Shown: positions 47,602 to 64,000, numbered from the stretch's first letter. The stretch is DNA of 64,000 nucleotides from Bdellovibrionota bacterium (GCA_030584005.1 CP129486.1:2219971-2283970), one strand, 5' to 3'. Numbers and translations are program-made. Notes: generated by a model not told the origin, from the letters alone.

Positions 47602-48819
47602 TTATTTGTGTCCAAAGACCAGCATCAATAGCTGTTTCATCCGAACAAGGATGCTCCTTTCGTGCTCTGCCCGTGGTGCCTGGGCCATTGCAGCGCTTTG
47701 AGTATCAACAGGTTGGTCATCAACCTTGGCAGTAGTAAGTACCCTCTGACGGGATTGCACTGCTAAGTCTGCTAAGTCGGACAGCGTCGACGTCCCGAGA
47801 TCTGTTGCAACGGCATCAAGAGGGCTTTTGGTCCCGACTCCTTTTTCTATCGTGACATGGGTATAAATCATAGTGGTTTTAAGATCGTTGTGACCAAGTA
47901 ACACCTGTACCGTTCGTACATCGGTCCCCGAATCGAGAAGGTGAGTTGCAAACGAGTGGCGACAGGTGTGGCAGGTCACTTTCTTTTGAATACCGGCTTT
48001 TTTGACCGCACAAGCCAAAGCATCTTGCATAATAGTTGGGTAGAGATGCCAGCGTCCTTCTTTTCCTGTACGTGGGTCCATTGAGCGCTTAAGCCAGGGG
48101 AAGACATACTGCCATTTCCATTCGGCGTCGGCGTTTGGATACTTTCTTTGAAGCGCATACGGAAGAATCGTGCGACCGAAGCCCTCCTTTATGTCTTGCC
48201 CGTGAACAACGTTCGCTTTCTCAAGTTGCTTTCGTAGTGGTCCTCTCAGGAACTTGGGGAGTGGGACGGTTCTATCTTTCTCGCCTTTGGCATCCCGAAC
48301 GATTATGAGATTCCGCTCGAAGTCTATATCTTTGACCCGGAGTTTTAACACCTCGATGAGCCGCATGCCGGTGCCATAGAGCAGGCATCCAATCAACCAC
48401 TGTACGCCAGACAGATTTTTTATGACTGCTATCATCTCATCAACACTTAATACAACAGGGATGTGCCTTGGCCTCTTGGCCCAGACGATTCCTTCAAACA
48501 TTCCAGGATCCATCTGAAGAACGTGTTTGTAGAGGTACACGATTCCGTTGAGCGCTTAATTCTGAGTCGCAGCGGACACGTTCTTGTAAGCTGCGAGGTA
48601 GCTCAGGAACTGAGTAATCTCCTCGGCTCCCATCTCTCTTGGGTGCTTGCCTCTGTGAAACGCAACAAACCGCTTGGCCCAATGGGTATATGTTTTCTCG
48701 GTAAATTGGCTCATATGCGCGAGGCGCATCTTCTCTCGCATTACCTGGAAGAGTCCCTTAGGCTTGCTCGCGGCGGGAGGGCCGAGGCTGATCCTTTCTC
48801 TGGGGTTGCATGGGTCCAT
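47602..48819 (-). pseudogene. intI: integron integrase IntI, interrupted by in-frame TAA (stop at 48556..48558)
   Basis: ORFs 48556..48819 and 47602..48540 are in the same frame. Together they align end-to-end with IntI: N-terminus YTHWAKRFVAFH; LLYGTGMRLIEVLKLRVKDIDF; KGEKDRTVPLP; the IntI-specific extra segment [21 protein letters not shown]; the catalytic HTCRHSFATHLL..LLGHNDLKTTMIYTHV. TAA sits where IntI1 has Gln (..STHRQALAAL..). Confidence 0.85.
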
Positions 48820-49088
48820 ACTTCATATATTCGCAATCCCTAGGTAAAAGTTTCTGCTCCCTCATGAGCACACTGGGTTACTCACGAGTTCCAGTGATCT
48901 CGTGAGTCCGCTCTTGTGAGACCCTCCGATAATTCCAAGGGCCGATATATTCCATCGGAACTACTAGCAATTTGGAGGCTGGGTGGGACGCATTCCCAAG
49001 AGACTCTCGTAGACTCACAGGGTCGGTAGAGTCAGCTCACGAGACTTGACAGGATTACTCACGAGAATACGTCAGTAGTATGTTCTCC
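48820..49088 (+). other. attI-like region: intI-to-first-cassette spacer with ctcacgag repeats and GTTCTCC core at 49082
   Basis: Repeats ttactcacgag (48878), inverted ctcgtgag (48899), agctcacgag (49034), attactcacgag (49054). Core GTTCTCC at 49082..49088 is identical to the R' core of attC1. Confidence 0.5.
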
Positions 49089-49511
49089 CGCAAAATGAGT
49101 TTTATGAAAAGAACGCCGTTCAAACGAATTATATCGGAAGTTCCGCAGCAAGAGGCGCACGATGGTGTGGGATTGCGCCGAGTACTTTTGTCTTCCGATC
49201 TACCGATTGCAAAGAATCTGCAAGCTATGACCCATGGAATTATGAAGCCCAGAACTTCCTTGGGGTGGCATCTCCATGACGATAAGGATGAAGTAATTCT
49301 TCTCATCCGGGGAAATGGCGTGGTGCATATTGATGGTGGCGAAAGTTTGCCTTGCGCTGCTGGCGATGTTCTATACATACCTGCGGGTAACCGACATCGA
49401 ATTGAGAATTTAAGTGATTCTGAGCTTGAAGAGTTTTTCTTCCGCGTCTTTGCTGAAGCGGGAGAACAATCAAGCGCAGCCGACCGCCCTGACGGGCGGC
49501 GGCTGGCTTAA
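49080..49511 (+). CDS. cupin-domain protein (integron cassette 1)
   Basis: Two-His cupin motif HLHDDKDEVILLIRGNG...G..LYIPAGNRHRIEN. 3' end runs into attC1. Confidence 0.65.
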   Translation: MFSRKMSFMKRTPFKRIISEVPQQEAHDGVGLRRVLLSSDLPIAKNLQAMTHGIMKPRTSLGWHLHDDKDEVILLIRGNGVVHIDGGESLPCAAGDVLYIPAGNRHRIENLSDSELEEFFFRVFAEAGEQSSAADRPDGRRLA

Positions 49512-49521
49512 ACCGTTCTCC
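49461..49521 (+). other. attC site 1
   Basis: R'' GGAGAAC (49461) ... inverted core R' GTTCTCC (49515). Internal imperfect palindrome CAGCCGACCGCCC / GGGCGGCGGCTGG. Paralogous to the attC at 50591. Confidence 0.65.
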
Positions 49522-49523
49522 CG

Positions 49524-49820
49524 TTAAGCAGCCCTTTTCTTAACAGCACGTTCCAATAGCTCATGCATCAAACTTTGATAGGGCTTGCCTTGAATACCAG
49601 CGAGCTTTTTCAATTGAGCGAGCAATTCCGGTGCGATTCTAACAGCAATCAATTGTTTAGCCTTGCCCGTTGAGGGGCGTCCAACTCGACGCGCCTTTCG
49701 AAGCTGCTCATCGGTGAGCTCGGGAATATCGGTAAAATCGATATCAGCGTCTTTGGTATGCCGCGCGCTCTTTCCGTGATGCCTTCCTTGCGCTGATGAT
49801 TCGGATCGTTTCCTTCCCAT
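49524..49820 (-). CDS. brnA: BrnA-like antitoxin (RHH)
   Basis: 98 aa, basic N-terminus. C-terminal ribbon-helix-helix-like LIAVRIAPELLAQLKKLA..YQSLMHELLE. Lies downstream of and overlaps brnT. Start uncertain. Confidence 0.65.
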   Translation of the reverse strand: MGRKRSESSAQGRHHGKSARHTKDADIDFTDIPELTDEQLRKARRVGRPSTGKAKQLIAVRIAPELLAQLKKLAGIQGKPYQSLMHELLERAVKKRAA

Positions 49821-50028
49821 CGCTTGTTCTCCTAACCGTATAAATTATAGTGAGTACTTTGCCTTCTGCCGACCTTGCCACCCTAAAATGGCGCGGCTCA
49901 AGCTGGGAGTGTTTTTGATCGACGCCATCAAGCCCGTCGGTATCAGCGAACGCGGTCGCAGCTTCTTCGAATGAAATTGCATGCTTTTCGAAGTTGGCCA
50001 ACGCCTTCTTCACGTCCCATGTGAACAT
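49744..50028 (-). CDS. brnT: BrnT-family ribonuclease toxin (DUF497)
   Basis: MFTWDVKKALANFEKHAISFEEAATAF...RIISARKASRKERAAY is a typical BrnT sequence. Confidence 0.8.
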   Translation of the reverse strand: MFTWDVKKALANFEKHAISFEEAATAFADTDGLDGVDQKHSQLEPRHFRVARSAEGKVLTIIYTVRRTSDGKETIRIISARKASRKERAAYQRR

Positions 50029-50096
50029 ATTATCGTATATACGCTAATTATGCGAGTGTTTTATAGAGTTATCGCCAAAACGCTGCTAAAGTTGCG

Positions 50097-62554: not shown

Positions 62555-62558
62555 CACA

Positions 62559-62652
62559 CAATAACTGCGGCCACCCGACGCAATGTCGTGAGTGGCACTG
62601 GCGATTTGATATCTGCGGTGGCCACGCCGAGGTGAAACCAAGAGCGTTCTGT
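62559..62652 (+). other. attC site
   Basis: CAATAAC (62559) ... CTGCGGCCACCC / CTGCGGTGGCCACGC ... GTTCTGT (62646). Confidence 0.65.
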
Positions 62653-62718
62653 GTTAACTTGTAATTGCCTACTGGTTTCGCCCCGGTGCACATAGCCATT
62701 ATATACCCTTGAGGGCTC

Positions 62719-63210
62719 ATGAAGATGAACACAGGCACTCAGCCCGGTTCAACAAGGAATCCGAACATTGCAGTTGATGAGATGTTATCAGCAGACCTGG
62801 CCGAAGTCATTGCGTTGGGTGAGAGTATCCCCGAATTCCGTACTGAAACTGAGGCGGCCCAATTTTATAGCCGTGAAACCTTGGAACGATGGCTCACCGA
62901 GCCGACTGGCGTTGCTTTAGTTTCACGTGACGGCGGCGTTGTTGTTGCGTTTGTGCTTGCCCAATATATGCCTGCTTCCCGCGATGGCTATCTCAATGTA
63001 ATCACCGTTGCCGAGTCGCTTCGAGGCAAGGGGGGTCTTGCGGAAGGTCTTCTGGAGCGAGCCTTCCAGATCTTAGAACGTAAAGGTTGTGATCACGTGT
63101 TCGGTTCGGTTCAAGACTCAAATGAGAGGGCTTTAAGATTCTTCGAGAAGCGTGGATTGCAGCGTGGAGATACATTTCGATATGTCGAAGCAATGCTTCA
63201 ACGTGAATAG
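62719..63210 (+). CDS. GNAT-family N-acetyltransferase (cassette)
   Basis: 163 aa. Acetyl-CoA binding motif A region VAESLRGKGGLAEGLLERA (the R/Q-x-x-G-x-G/A type). Confidence 0.75.
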   Translation: MKMNTGTQPGSTRNPNIAVDEMLSADLAEVIALGESIPEFRTETEAAQFYSRETLERWLTEPTGVALVSRDGGVVVAFVLAQYMPASRDGYLNVITVAESLRGKGGLAEGLLERAFQILERKGCDHVFGSVQDSNERALRFFEKRGLQRGDTFRYVEAMLQRE

Positions 63211-63281
63211 AACCTAGCAACGGTGCATAGCAACCAAATCCAGCAGAGCAGTAGACTGCCTGCTGGGCTTCGCGGTTACAC
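63207..63281 (+). other. possible attC site
   Basis: ATAGAAC (63207) ... CAGCAGAGCAGTAGACTGCCTGCTGG palindrome ... GTTACAC (63275). Confidence 0.45.
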
Positions 63282-63313
63282 CGCTTTATGTGAGACTGAC
63301 TGCTGAACAGGAG

Positions 63314-64000
63314 ATGATAATAATGGGGCCAGTCACTTCTATTGCTAGGAGCAAGCGTTCCAGCTCTCCCATTCTCAATAAGCTCACATGCATATTGACC
63401 ATAATGTTTCTTCCGATTGTTCCATCTCTTGCTTACGCAGAACGTTCCTGCGACGTAATTGTAAAAGAGATCAGCGCGGTCTTTGACGTGCCTCTCGGCT
63501 GTATGCGAGACAATTGTCCTGGATTTTCAATCCTTGATTCTGGAACTCCAAATGCCGAACGCTGTGCCGGCAAATGTAATCTTGCATGGACCAGACCTCC
63601 TCCAACTGGTTCAGTCGACGATCTTAAGCGCTGTGAGCACTTTATTCCAAAGATTAAGGGAGTCCCGCCGGATTACTACGGGCTCGCTTTTTGCTTAGCC
63701 GCATCGGAATCGGACCTAAGTCGTTGTGGGAGCATGTTTCGTACTTCCGATGAAATGGACTATCTTAAGCTGGCACGTTGCCTCAGGGCTTCCGAAGCCA
63801 CCGCCGTAGTGATAGAGCCGTTGCAAGCATGCATGAATCGTGGCGAGTGCCTCAAAAGCAGTCGCAACTGGCAGTACGATCCCTGCTTTAAGCAGTGCCA
63901 TCAAGATGCGGAACAGCTCATTGAGCTTGCGACTACGACAGTTGAAAGATGTGATGGAATAGAGCAATCAAGGACGTCTCTTTGCTCTATGTTACGTAGC
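63314..64000 (+). CDS. Cys-rich secreted hypothetical protein, 3' partial (runs off window end)
   Basis: Not in the ORF track because it has no stop in the window. Hand translation from ATG 63314 is open to 64000 (about 229 codons): MIIMGPVTS...ILTIMFLPIVPSLAYAERSCDVIV... with over 15 Cys. Confidence 0.45.
   Translation, partial: MIIMGPVTSIARSKRSSSPILNKLTCILTIMFLPIVPSLAYAERSCDVIVKEISAVFDVPLGCMRDNCPGFSILDSGTPNAERCAGKCNLAWTRPPPTGSVDDLKRCEHFIPKIKGVPPDYYGLAFCLAASESDLSRCGSMFRTSDEMDYLKLARCLRASEATAVVIEPLQACMNRGECLKSSRNWQYDPCFKQCHQDAEQLIELATTTVERCDGIEQSRTSLCSMLRS

What the first reader, a model, noticed from the sequence alone, without database searches (positions are those of the whole stretch)
47602..64000. 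Chromosomal integron: intI, attI and an array of about 20 gene cassettes extending past the window end
The minus-strand gene at 47602..48819 is an integron integrase, not a generic XerC/D. It has the IntI-specific additional segment ([21 protein letters not shown]) between patches II and III, and near-identity to IntI blocks (LLYGTGMR..LRVKD.DF, KG.KDR, HT.RHSFAT.LL, LLGH.D..TTMIYTHV). Divergently from it, the + strand carries a run of short, tightly packed, same-orientation ORFs. Each is followed by a 55-100-bp imperfect palindrome bounded by RYYYAAC (left, usually overlapping the stop codon) and GTTRRRY (right) cores. These are canonical attC sites, and at least 14 are clear with 4-5 more tentative. 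Cargo includes an inverted BrnTA toxin-antitoxin, a cupin, APH-type kinase, nucleotidyltransferase, GNAT, deaminase, P-loop kinase, RidA, and many secreted or membrane proteins of unknown function. This is the hallmark of a sedentary chromosomal integron. The array is not closed within the window.
Basis: partly seen in the sequence, partly recalled or inferred. Interest (0 to 1): 0.9.

Follow-up and report, generated by a model that had tools for sequence, protein, structure and literature searches.

The report
Chromosomal integron with broken integrase
This is a real but ordinary chromosomal integron, a gene-capture platform holding about 20 cassettes in the window and about 24 in all. In this strain a stop codon has switched off its integrase, and a mobile element has split one cassette recombination site.

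Summary
The minus-strand gene at 47602-48819 scores 417 bits on the integron-integrase model TIGR02249 (cutoff 265). It aligns end to end with the solved Vibrio cholerae integron integrase VchIntIA, including the IntI-specific segment.

Downstream of a crossover at G49082|TT lie 15 strong attC hairpins, one site split by an insertion sequence, and about four degenerate ones. All are on the + strand, and none occurs in the other 48.8 kb. Their stems covary. Each cassette's first bases are complementary to its own R'' box, which is the footprint of circular cassettes recombined at G|TT.

- intI carries an in-frame TAA (Q88*). A 99.1%-identical strain has CAA.
- A 1,622-bp IS1111-type insertion sequence with a frameshifted transposase sits one base after the R'' AAC of attC7.
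- Only AAC and GTT are conserved. The extended RYYYAAC/GTTRRRY cores are not.

A near-identical contig shows the array closing about 2.1 kb past the window, with about 24 cassettes in all. Another strain carries a different cassette at exactly one R' junction. The host is probably Bdellovibrionota. This is a new member of a known kind, of modest interest.

The parts
47602..48819 (-). intI, integron integrase gene, interrupted by one in-frame stop. It reads as ORFs 48556-48819 (87 aa) and 47602-48540 (312 aa).
   Evidence: With the stop read as Q it scores 416.9 bits on TIGR02249 (cutoff 265) over profile positions 3-314 of 315. It scores 260 bits against VchIntIA 2A3V over residues 27-335.
48556..48558 (-). 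Premature stop codon TAA at codon 88 of intI (Q88*).
   Evidence: The window reads ATQN*ALNG. All eight intact relatives read TQNQAL, seven of them STQNQALN. The 99.1%-identical contig L167 reads CAA, giving ATQNQALNG and an intact 375-aa ORF.
48820..49082 (+). intI-attI intergenic region. The attI crossover lies between G49082 and T49083. Four copies of (A/G)CTCACGAG lie at 48880-88 (+), 48899-907 (-), 49035-43 (+) and 49057-65 (+).
   Evidence: GTTCTCCCGC at 49082 is complementary to R'' GCGGGAGAAC of attC1, matching 7 of 8 positions beyond the triplet. Four of the window's 10 motif matches fall within 186 bp. Relatives have analogous CTCGAG/CACGAG repeats and an attI ending ..TGTTAT.
49083..49515 (+). 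Cassette 1: cupin (ORF 49080-49511). Its ATG is supplied by attI. attC1 is at 49461-49521.
   Evidence: Cupin_2, 50.8 bits. attC model hit 51.1 bits, E=3.5e-9.
49516..50147 (+). Cassette 2: inverted BrnT (49744-50028, -) and BrnA (49524-49820, -) toxin-antitoxin pair. attC2 is at 50097-50153.
   Evidence: BrnT_toxin 75.7 bits and BrnA_antitoxin 35.2 bits. attC hit 51.1 bits. Start/R'' match 6 of 8.
50148..50645 (+). Cassette 3: 148-aa membrane protein (50150-50596). attC3 is at 50591-50651.
   Evidence: No Pfam hit. attC hit 53.3 bits. Start/R'' match 7 of 8.
50646..51401 (+). Cassette 4: 127-aa protein of unknown function (50897-51280). attC4 is at 51313-51407.
   Evidence: attC hit 58.2 bits. 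Start/R'' match 8 of 8.
51402..51849 (+). Cassette 5: 107-aa protein with an SPFH/Band 7 N-terminal match (51420-51743). attC5 is at 51759-51855.
   Evidence: Band_7, 26.7 bits. attC hit 60.2 bits. Match 7 of 8.
51850..52382 (+). Cassette 6: RidA/L-PSP gene split by a frameshift (51872-52072 and 52057-52284). attC6 is at 52293-52388.
   Evidence: The two ORFs hit profile positions 3-38 and 55-120 of PF01042. attC hit 71.3 bits. Match 7 of 8.
52383..52768 (+). Cassette 7, left part: 119-aa ORF (52397-52756) plus the R'' box GGGATAAC (52760-52767) and one further base of attC7.
   Evidence: Start/R'' match 6 of 8. Junction analysis.
52769..54390 (-). IS1111-type insertion sequence, 1,622 bp. The transposase is at 53232-54293 and is frameshifted near residue 285. 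A 463-nt non-coding region lies downstream of it (52769-53231). Subterminal inverted repeats are ATAAAGGCCCC and GGGGCCTTAT, with 7-bp (GACACTC) and 3-bp (AGC) terminal extensions.
   Evidence: NF033542 138.5 bits; DEDD_Tnp_IS110 and Transposase_20. Frameshift shown. The repaired protein aligns over 99-100% of its length to IS110-family transposases at 44-51% identity. Ends are and homologous ends and flanks in relatives. The same element with the same frameshift is present in L177. Contig L163 breaks 26 nt inside it.
54391..54477 (+). attC7, right part (spacer, L'', L' and a degenerate R'). Joined to 52760-52768 it restores GGGATAACA|AATCCGCTCCACCAG..., which is homologous to attC16.
   Evidence: Partial model hit at 54391-54474, 19.4 bits, model positions 8-77. 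Restoration. The strain breakpoint falls at 54472.
54472..56042 (+). Cassette 8, with two ORFs and no attC between them: 316-aa protein of unknown function (54497-55447) and a cytidine/deoxycytidylate-type deaminase (55495-55956). Its attC is at 55951-56048.
   Evidence: dCMP_cyt_deam_1, 75.6 bits. attC hit 60.8 bits. No model hit in 55448-55494.
56043..56845 (+). Cassette 9: 230-aa P-loop protein (56067-56759). attC is at 56754-56851.
   Evidence: AAA_33 22.1 bits, below the cutoff. attC hit 56.5 bits.
56846..57436 (+). Cassette 10: 147-aa putative secreted protein (56935-57378). Degenerate attC at 57381-57442, with R'' AAA and R' ATT.
   Evidence: Model hit 20.1 bits, E=0.033 for the whole window. 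The alignment shows A in place of the cleavage-site G.
57437..57762 (+). Cassette 11: small, with only a doubtful 54-aa ORF (57418-57582). attC is at 57703-57768.
   Evidence: attC hit 46.2 bits.
57763..58233 (+). Cassette 12: protein of unknown function, up to 127 aa (57767-58150). attC is at 58145-58239.
   Evidence: attC hit 69.2 bits. Start/R'' match 6 of 8.
58234..59310 (+). Cassette 13: APH-family phosphotransferase (58255-59211). attC is at 59221-59316.
   Evidence: PF01636, 49.2 bits. attC hit 67.5 bits.
59311..60015 (+). Cassette 14: 214-aa putative nucleotidyltransferase (59328-59972). attC is at 59967-60021.
   Evidence: NTP_transf_2 20.3 bits, just below the cutoff. attC hit 46.8 bits.
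60016..60661 (+). Cassette 15: 177-aa secreted protein (60027-60560). attC is at 60569-60667, with R'' GAC.
   Evidence: attC hit 34.4 bits. Start/R'' match 8 of 8.
60662..61599 (+). Cassette 16: 156-aa membrane protein (60685-61155) and a 106-aa ORF (61193-61513). A very weak attC remnant lies at 61508-61599.
   Evidence: Model hit only 5.9 bits, E=6.9. No attC in 61156-61192.
61600..62087 (+). Cassette 17: secreted protein or lipoprotein (61626-62051). attC is at 62040-62093.
   Evidence: attC hit 41.2 bits.
62088..62704 (+). Cassette 18: 149-aa membrane protein (62105-62554). Long degenerate attC at 62556-62704, with R' ATT.
   Evidence: Model hit 17.1 bits with many unpaired positions.
62705..63275 (+). 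Cassette 19: GNAT acetyltransferase (62719-63210). attC is at 63225-63281.
   Evidence: Acetyltransf_1, 48.7 bits. attC hit 36.3 bits.
63276..64000 (+). Cassette 20, cut by the window end: Cys-rich secreted protein starting at 63323. It is 249 aa in the near-identical contig L163.
   Evidence: Translation. The complete gene is L163 8959-9708, with its attC at L163 9719-9819.

Best explanation
This is a chromosomal integron of an uncultured bacterium. The host is probably Bdellovibrionota, inferred only from the nearest IntI relatives.

**Layout.** The platform is intI (minus strand) and a roughly 260-bp intI-attI spacer ending in the crossover G49082|TT. An array of about 20 cassettes follows in the window. 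In a 99.9%-identical strain the array runs to about 24 cassettes over about 17 kb. It ends about 2.1 kb past the window, in front of a convergent oxidoreductase gene.

**How it works.** This follows established integron biology. IntI, a tyrosine recombinase, binds the folded bottom strand of an attC hairpin. That hairpin has R''/R' boxes pairing through AAC/GTT, an unpaired central spacer, and an L''/L' stem with extrahelical bases on the L'' arm. IntI exchanges strands between G and TT. This excises cassettes as circles and reinserts them at attI.

**Shown here.**
- Family membership of IntI.
- Covarying attC structure.
- The circular-permutation footprint of every well-preserved cassette.
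- Cassette-content differences between near-identical strains, with the breakpoint exactly at an R' core.

**Inferred.**
- In this particular strain the system is frozen. intI has a Q88* nonsense codon upstream of all catalytic residues. Several attCs are fossil sites, with A in place of the cleavage-site G, or R'' reading GAC or AGC.
- attC7 is split one base after its R'' AAC by a defective IS1111-type insertion sequence.
- The inverted BrnTA toxin-antitoxin cassette is expected to stabilise the array.
- Cassette expression would come from an unidentified promoter (Pc) near attI.
For: **Integrase**
- TIGR02249 416.9 bits against a cutoff of 265. XerC, XerD and the class 1 IntI1 model are all below their cutoffs.
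- Full-length alignment to VchIntIA 2A3V, including the extra domain.

**attC sites**
- On the 15-site alignment, 87.3% of cells are paired, against 34-48% when partners are slid. The covariation score is 0.562 against 0.11-0.17. Nine of 14 pairs show double-sided changes.
- The covariance model gives 18 hits, all on the + strand within the array. The other 48.8 kb gives nothing better than E=3.
- The same model finds four non-training attCs beyond the window in L163, with E from 1.7e-6 to 0.03. It also finds attCs upstream of intI, on the expected strand, in independent Bdellovibrionota genomes.

**Cassette ends**
- Complementarity between each cassette's start and its own R'' averages 5.56 of 8, against 3.11 for non-consecutive pairs. 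None of 20,000 permutations reached the observed total.
- R'' compared with the physically adjacent R' is at control level, 3.25.

**Strain comparisons**
- L171 (99.37% identical) replaces cassette 7 and the insertion sequence with a Peripla_BP_6 cassette that has its own attC. The breakpoint is at the R' core.
- L001, L082 and L002 share intI-attI and then diverge after GTTAT.
- L167 has an intact intI.

**Chromosomal setting**
- Genes for RelA/SpoT, aspartate kinase, Mrp, IspF and a lytic transglycosylase lie upstream. An oxidoreductase gene lies downstream of the last attC.
Against: - No recombination was observed directly.
- The stop codon rests on a single base in a single assembly and could be an error.
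- The extended RYYYAAC/GTTRRRY consensus is not met.
- No convincing Pc promoter was found: one promoter-like site against 0.9 expected by chance.
- The attCs are heterogeneous (mean column identity 44%, lengths 54-149 nt). Model sedentary arrays such as the Vibrio VCRs are much more uniform.
- The covariance model was trained on sites from this same window, so its hits on those 15 sites are circular. The non-training hits and the end-complementarity test are what carry the weight.
- Host taxonomy is not established.
Confidence: 0.93

Rival explanations
1. The integron is fully active in this genome. On this view the TAA in intI is a sequencing or assembly error, or is read through, and intI is intact as in strain L167.
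For: - The difference is a single base: A in the window against G in L167 at 48558.
- A 99.1%-identical strain has CAA and a 375-aa ORF.
- Synonymous codon differences in intI between the two strains outnumber non-synonymous ones, 10 to 8, so there is no clear sign of long-term decay.
Against: - The window reads TAA unambiguously.
- The window allele also carries S->W at the FPS position, which is invariant in all eight intact relatives and in L167.
- Other genes in the same array are genuinely decayed. The transposase frameshift is reproduced in an independent assembly, and RidA is frameshifted.
Confidence: 0.15
2. It is a mobile integron carried on a transposon, plasmid or integrative element, not a resident chromosomal one.
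For: - GC drops by about 5 points at the intI boundary.
- Divergence between strains is concentrated around intI and attI: 45 differences in 46417-48995 against none in 43958-46416.
- The attCs are heterogeneous, as in mobile integrons.
Against: - No tni, transposase, resolvase, replication or conjugation genes flank it.
- Housekeeping genes run right up to intI, and an oxidoreductase gene follows the last attC.
- The same flank, intI and distal array occur in contigs from several independent samples at 99% identity or better.
- With about 24 cassettes it exceeds mobile-integron sizes.
- IntI is not class 1: NF011946 scores 306 bits against a cutoff of 435.
Confidence: 0.04
3. The palindromes are generic intergenic repeats (REP or MITE-like) or terminators that happen to lie next to a Xer-like recombinase. 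On this view they are not attC sites.
For: - The strict attC core consensus is not met.
- A naive hairpin-energy scan does not separate the array from the rest of the window.
Against: - The recombinase passes the IntI model and fails the Xer models.
- The repeats are strictly strand-specific and confined to the array.
- Each cassette's 5' end is complementary to its own R'' and not to the neighbouring R', which only G|TT site-specific recombination of circular cassettes explains.
- Strain differences break exactly at R'.
Confidence: 0.01

Closest known systems
Sedentary chromosomal integrons, for example the Vibrio cholerae superintegron with VchIntIA (PDB 2A3V) and the Xanthomonas and Pseudomonas chromosomal integrons
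   Same: - IntI with the integron-specific extra domain, scoring 260 bits against 2A3V over its full length.
- attI divergent from intI.
- A long array of promoterless cassettes in one orientation, mostly of unknown function.
- An inverted toxin-antitoxin cassette.
- A chromosomal setting.
- An inactivated intI, which from my own knowledge is common in Xanthomonas chromosomal integrons.
   Different: - The attCs are heterogeneous in length and sequence. They form several small sub-families (c01/c03, c10/c13, c05/c14, c07/c16), not one VCR-like repeat.
- Beyond the AAC/GTT triplet the cores read ..A(T/G)AAC and GTT(A/C)T.., not RYYYAAC and GTTRRRY.
- IntI has a clade-specific C-terminal tail of about 70 aa.
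- attI carries CNCGAG-type repeats.
Class 1 mobile integron (IntI1, NF011946)
   Same: The intI-attI-cassette logic and the G|TT crossover are the same. Cargo types such as APH, GNAT and nucleotidyltransferase recall resistance cassettes.
   Different: - IntI scores 306 bits against the 435-bit equivalog cutoff.
- No Tn402 or 3'-conserved-segment context.
- About 24 cassettes.
- Chromosomal housekeeping flanks.
[quoted passage not shown]
   Same: - DEDD transposase.
- A non-coding region downstream of the transposase gene (463 nt).
- Subterminal inverted repeats with 7-bp and 3-bp extensions.
- Insertion at one end of an attC, one base after the R'' AAC.
- Relatives in Vibrio and Ca. Manganitrophus carry the same ..ATT|IS|TGTT.. 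flanks.
   Different: - The best plasmid-borne relatives are only 44-51% identical and are annotated simply as IS110 family.
- No direct comparison with ISPst6 or ISKpn4 was possible, so membership of the described group is untested.
- This copy is defective because of a frameshift.
- No Rfam family matches its non-coding region.

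Membership tests
Integron | Tyrosine recombinase of the IntI family, with the additional domain between patches II and III | tested here: met
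   TIGR02249 416.9 bits (cutoff 265), profile positions 3-314 of 315. The segment aligns to VchIntIA residues around 200-245.
Integron | Uninterrupted intI reading frame, needed for a functional platform | tested here: not met
   In-frame TAA at 48556-48558. Relatives and the 99.1%-identical L167 have CAA.
Integron | attC sites: imperfect hairpins in which R'' and R' pair through the conserved AAC/GTT triplets, with L''/L' stems | tested here: met
   In the 15 aligned sites the three triplet pairs (AAC with GTT) are standard in 14 sites and G-U in one. 87% of cells are paired, and the L stem covaries. The covariance model is specific to the array and finds non-training sites.
Integron | Extended core consensus RYYYAAC (R'') and GTTRRRY (R') | tested here: not met
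   A strict pattern scan finds one pair in the array, and it is not a real site. Observed R' boxes are GTTCTCC, GTTATGG, GTTATCC and similar.
Integron | Unpaired features that distinguish the two strands: extrahelical bases on the L'' arm and an unpaired central spacer (PMC5027507) | tested here: met
   The L'' arm has 5 unpaired columns against 3 on L'. It also has a nearly invariant single bulged A, which is T on the bottom strand. A 4-nt and a 5-nt spacer separate the R and L boxes.
Integron | attI next to intI, with cassette insertion at G|TT | tested here: met
   GTTCTCCCGC at 49082 is complementary to the R'' of cassette 1. Relatives share attI and diverge right after GTTAT.
Integron | Cassettes are circularly permuted units: the 5' end TTnnnn is complementary to the cassette's own R'' | tested here: met
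   Mean 5.56 of 8 against 3.11 in controls; 0 of 20,000 permutations reach the observed total.
Integron | Cassette promoter Pc upstream of attI | tested here: inconclusive
   One sigma-70-like site at 48408-48435, no more than the shuffled expectation.
Integron | IntI-catalysed attI x attC and attC x attC recombination | not testable with these tools
   Only indirect evidence: near-identical strains differ by a whole cassette at an R' core.
Sedentary chromosomal integron | Chromosomal location without a mobilising element | tested here: met
   Housekeeping genes up to intI. An oxidoreductase gene follows the last attC in L163.
Sedentary chromosomal integron | Large array, conventionally more than 19 attC sites (threshold recalled from memory of the IntegronFinder papers) | tested here: met
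   15 strong sites, 1 split by the insertion sequence and about 4 degenerate in the window. Four more lie beyond the window end in L163.
Sedentary chromosomal integron | Homogeneous, species-specific attC sites | tested here: inconclusive
   Mean column identity 44% and lengths of 54-149 nt. There are only small sub-families of similar sites.
IS1111 family insertion sequence | DEDD (IS110-type) transposase | tested here: met
   NF033542 138.5 bits (cutoff 140, because the C-terminus is frameshifted). PF01548 and PF02371 also hit. The repaired protein aligns at 99-100% coverage.
IS1111 family insertion sequence | Subterminal inverted repeats of 11-13 bp with 7-bp left and 3-bp right extensions, and the long non-coding region downstream of the transposase gene (PMC11187229) | tested here: met
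   ATAAAGGCCCC and GGGGCCTTAT match at 10 of 11 positions with one indel. The extensions are GACACTC and AGC. The non-coding region is 463 nt. Ends are homologous in relatives.
IS1111 family insertion sequence | seekRNA encoded in the non-coding region, with guides matching the target | tested here: inconclusive
   The 8-mers TTATCCCG and TCTGGTGG in the non-coding region match the target flanks, which is only slightly above chance. No Rfam hit.
BrnT/BrnA type II toxin-antitoxin | Adjacent BrnT ribonuclease toxin and BrnA antitoxin genes | tested here: met
   PF04365 75.7 bits and PF14384 35.2 bits. The two minus-strand ORFs overlap.

The most novel reading that the evidence does not exclude
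The IntI proteins of this Bdellovibrionota-associated clade may form a distinct integron class with added regulation or partners. They share a conserved C-terminal tail of about 70 aa, an attI packed with CNCGAG-type repeats, and often an ATG at the crossover.

In parallel, the insertion sequence here may belong to a lineage separate from the described IS1111-attC group. Its relatives are found in Vibrio and Ca. Manganitrophus. That lineage would independently use an RNA guide to target the attC R''/spacer sequence 'AACA|AAT'.
Probability: 0.25. Interest if true: 0.45.

Novelty: new member of a known kind. Interest (0 to 1): 0.3.

Why it matters
This adds a well-resolved chromosomal integron from a poorly sampled, probably predatory lineage.

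Its most useful feature is a natural strain series. One strain has an intact intI and a different attI-side cassette. Another has a Q88* intI, fossilised attCs and an insertion sequence lodged in an attC. That makes it a compact example of how integron arrays turn over and then decay.

It does not change what is known about integron mechanism. The APH, GNAT and nucleotidyltransferase cassettes are uncharacterised and should not be read as resistance genes.

Tried and rejected
- **Strict consensus scan.** RYYYAAC-N-GTTRRRY found essentially nothing in the array. I dropped it as a detector, not as evidence against attCs.
- **Hairpin-energy scan.** AAC...GTT pairs scored by constrained folding energy gave similar densities inside and outside the array and on both strands. 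It was uninformative.
- **Rfam.** Scanning 47-64 kb gave no hits. attC is a DNA site, and the insertion sequence's RNA has no model.
- **Exact-protein look-ups.** GNAT, APH, cupin, the 148-aa membrane protein and the transglycosylase are not on record. So the attI-proximal cassettes could not be compared between strains.
- **Synteny.** Housekeeping flanks showed no synteny with the IntI-relative loci.
- **Subterminal repeats.** A generic repeat search and a one-mismatch search found none. They emerged only once the attC7 halves were joined and one indel was allowed.
- **Tetu and Holmes 2008 (PMC2447020).** The paper is not held. The exact insertion position of the described IS1111-attC group could not be compared.

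Full report
**1. The integrase**

Translating 47602-48819 on the minus strand gives a 405-codon frame with one internal stop...SAATQN*ALNGIVYLY.... The stop is the codon at 48556-48558, which reads tta on the + strand. The frame is therefore listed as two ORFs, of 87 aa and 312 aa.

With the stop read as Q, the protein scores 416.9 bits on NCBIfam TIGR02249 'integron integrase'. The cutoff is 265 and the match covers profile positions 3-314 of 315. XerC and XerD score 145 and 133 bits against cutoffs above 329. The class 1 IntI1 equivalog NF011946 scores 306 bits against 435. Pfam finds Phage_int_SAM_4 and Phage_integrase.

The protein aligns from residue 27 to 335 with the solved Vibrio cholerae integron integrase 2A3V (260 bits). 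The alignment includes the IntI-specific insertion: [31 protein letters not shown] against LPTALKEKYPNAPYEFRWHYLFPSFQLSLDP.

All eight intact relatives recovered from genome and metagenome collections read TQNQAL at the stop position, seven of them STQNQALN. A Logan contig, L167 from SRR10807626, is 99.1% identical to window 43958-49026. It has CAA there and an uninterrupted 375-aa gene.

The window allele is therefore a Q88* nonsense variant. The stop lies upstream of every catalytic residue. The window allele also has W at the FPS position, which is S in all eight intact relatives and in L167.

**2. The attC sites**

A strict RYYYAAC...GTTRRRY scan fails, and a naive hairpin-energy scan is not specific. 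Reading the intergenic sequence nevertheless shows imperfect palindromes that begin ..AAC and end GTT.. after nearly every + strand ORF.

I aligned 15 of them. RNAalifold recovered the L''/L' stem without guidance, and 8 of its 9 pairs show compensatory changes. After adding the R-box pairs:
- 87.3% of cells are paired, against 34-48% when the 3' partners are slid by 1-3 columns.
- The covariation score is 0.562, against 0.11-0.17.
- No shuffle in 500 reaches the observed value.

The L'' arm carries more unpaired columns than L', including a nearly invariant bulged A, which is T on the bottom strand. Unpaired spacers of 4 and 5 nt separate the R and L boxes. These are the extrahelical bases and unpaired central spacer that define attC sites (PMC5027507).

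I built a covariance model from this alignment and searched all 64 kb on both strands with filters off. It returns the 15 training sites at E from 1e-13 to 2e-5. It also returns three further sites: 57381-57442, 54391-54474 and 62556-62704. All are on the + strand inside the array. The best hit anywhere else has E=3.

The training hits are circular, so I relied on independent checks:
- The model finds four new sites in the 3.8 kb that continue the array past the window in contig L163, at E=1.7e-6, 4.6e-4, 7.6e-4 and 0.03.
- It finds sites upstream of intI, on the expected strand, in unrelated Bdellovibrionota genome bins L001, L002 and L003.

**3. Cassettes are circularly permuted units**

Integron recombination cuts between G and TT of R'. 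A cassette in an array therefore begins with the TTnnnn that once paired with its own R''.

I compared the reverse complement of the first bases of each cassette with the bases preceding the AAC of that cassette's own attC:
- The mean match is 5.56 of 8 positions.
- Non-consecutive combinations give 3.11.
- R'' compared with the physically adjacent R' gives 3.25.
- None of 20,000 permutations reaches the observed sum.

The first cassette obeys the same rule. GTTCTCCCGC at 49082 matches R'' GCGGGAGAAC, which places the attI crossover at G49082|T49083.

I regard this as the strongest single piece of evidence that these are real integron cassettes. It is also independent of the covariance model.

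**4. Population evidence**

*Contig L163.* L163 (SRR16693997) equals window 54365-64000 with 6 mismatches in 9,636 nt. It continues for 3.8 kb. The last attC is at L163 11630-11717, followed by a convergent 488-aa Pyr_redox_2 gene. The array therefore ends at about window-equivalent 66.08 kb. It holds about 24 cassettes over about 17 kb, including the insertion sequence.

*Contig L171.* L171 comes from SRR10807626, the sample with the intact intI. It is colinear with window 54472-63956 at 99.37% identity and without gaps. Upstream of that point it carries a 373-aa periplasmic-binding-protein cassette with its own attC, where the window has cassette 7 and the insertion sequence. That cassette has R'' GAGGAGAAC and starts TTCTCCTC. 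The breakpoint lies in the R' core.

*More distant relatives.* L001, L082 and L002 share a nearly identical 268-bp intI-attI region and then diverge completely after ...CACACTGTTAT.

**5.

*Insertion sequence.* A 1,622-bp insertion sequence lies at 52769-54390.
- Its transposase (53232-54293, minus strand) hits the IS110-family models. It is frameshifted near residue 285.
- The repaired 352-aa protein aligns over its whole length with IS110-family transposases at 44-51% identity.
- In the transposase orientation, the ends read GACACTC-ATAAAGGCCCC... and ...GGGGCCTTAT-AGC. These are subterminal inverted repeats with 7-bp and 3-bp extensions.
- A 463-nt non-coding region lies downstream of the transposase gene. 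These are the IS1111-family hallmarks described in PMC11187229.
- Removing the element joins GGGATAACA to AATCCGCTCCACCAG... This restores an attC homologous to attC16. The element therefore sits one base after the R'' AAC.
- Relatives in a Vibrio campbellii plasmid and a Ca. Manganitrophus plasmid have homologous ends and the same ..ATT|IS|TGTT(A/C).. flanks. This suggests lineage-wide targeting of the attC R''/spacer, as reported for the IS1111-attC group.
- The same copy, with the same frameshift, is present in an independent assembly, L177. Contig L163 breaks 26 nt inside it.

*Decayed cargo.* The RidA cassette is frameshifted.

*Fossil attCs.*
- c11 and c20 have A in place of the cleavage-site G.
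- c16 and c21 have GAC and AGC in place of AAC.
- The 55448-55494 and 61156-61192 gaps have no attC at all. Those cassettes therefore hold two ORFs each.

**6. Context and cargo**

Upstream genes are ordinary chromosomal ones: RelA/SpoT, aspartate kinase, an Mrp-type NTPase, a radical SAM enzyme, a formyltransferase, IspF and a lytic transglycosylase, plus one tRNA-Leu. GC falls from about 0.555 to about 0.50 at intI.

Cargo confirmed by Pfam: cupin, inverted BrnT/BrnA, a Band 7 fragment, RidA, deaminase, APH and GNAT. The P-loop protein and the nucleotidyltransferase are sub-threshold hits. About half of the cassettes have no family.

The intI-attI spacer holds four of the window's ten (A/G)CTCACGAG matches within 186 bp. 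Relatives have analogous CTCGAG/CACGAG repeats. Their role, whether IntI accessory sites or an operator, is unknown. No convincing Pc promoter was found.

The nearest IntI proteins are 55-81% identical. Among genomes that carry a name, they come from freshwater Bdellovibrionota genome bins. That is the only basis for the host assignment.

**7. Verdict**

The interpretation as a chromosomal integron is correct and robust. The array closes just past the window.

In this strain the platform is disabled and partly fossilised, while a sister strain retains an intact integrase and a different cassette. This is a new member of a well-known kind of element. It is a useful natural example, but it would not surprise a specialist.

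Noticed in passing
window 52769-54390: A 1,622-bp IS1111-type insertion sequence sits one base after the R'' AAC of attC7. Its transposase is frameshifted. Relatives at 44-51% identity in Vibrio campbellii and Ca. Manganitrophus plasmids share the ..ATT|IS|TGTT.. flanks. In Vibrio the flank overlaps the stop codon of a small ORF, as in an integron cassette.
   Followed up: yes
window 47602-47810 (IntI residues about 336-405); L081, L082, L001-L005: IntI proteins of this clade carry a C-terminal tail of about 60-80 aa beyond the end of VchIntIA. The tail varies in sequence but ends in a basic/aromatic helix-like motif, for example RMKQLLMLVFGHK or FRRFLAELWQRD. Its function is unknown.
   Followed up: partly
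window 48880-49065: Four copies of (A/G)CTCACGAG lie between intI and the attI crossover. Two of them form a 9-bp inverted repeat spaced by 10 bp. Relatives have analogous CTCGAG/CACGAG repeats at the same place. They could be IntI accessory sites or an operator.
   Followed up: partly
window 49080-49082; L081, L003, L005 attI ends: attI ends in ATG immediately before the |TT crossover in the window and in three of the distinct relatives. In the window this ATG opens the cupin ORF, so the start codon would be supplied by attI. No obvious ribosome-binding site lies upstream.
   Followed up: no
window 46417-48995 compared with 43958-46416: Against the 99.1%-identical strain L167, all 45 differences fall in the 2.6 kb spanning the transglycosylase 5' end, intI and attI. 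None falls in the adjacent 2.5 kb. This is a local divergence hot spot, possibly from allele exchange.
   Followed up: partly
window 51872-52284: The RidA/L-PSP cassette gene is split into two overlapping ORFs by a frameshift. This was not checked in other strains.
   Followed up: no
window 49083-52382 compared with 54472-64000: Two of the attI-proximal cassette proteins (cupin, 148-aa membrane protein) were looked up and are absent from public assemblies. The 119-aa ORF of cassette 7 and two distal cassette proteins recur at 99% identity or better in contigs from several samples. However, two other distal proteins, APH and GNAT, were also absent as exact sequences. This fits newer acquisitions lying next to attI, but absence of exact matches is weak evidence.
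   Followed up: partly
window 28019-29269 and 31612-35256: Upstream chromosomal genes include a collagen-triple-helix-repeat protein and a TadE-like pilus protein next to a 768-aa protein with no Pfam match. These are unrelated to the integron.
   Followed up: no
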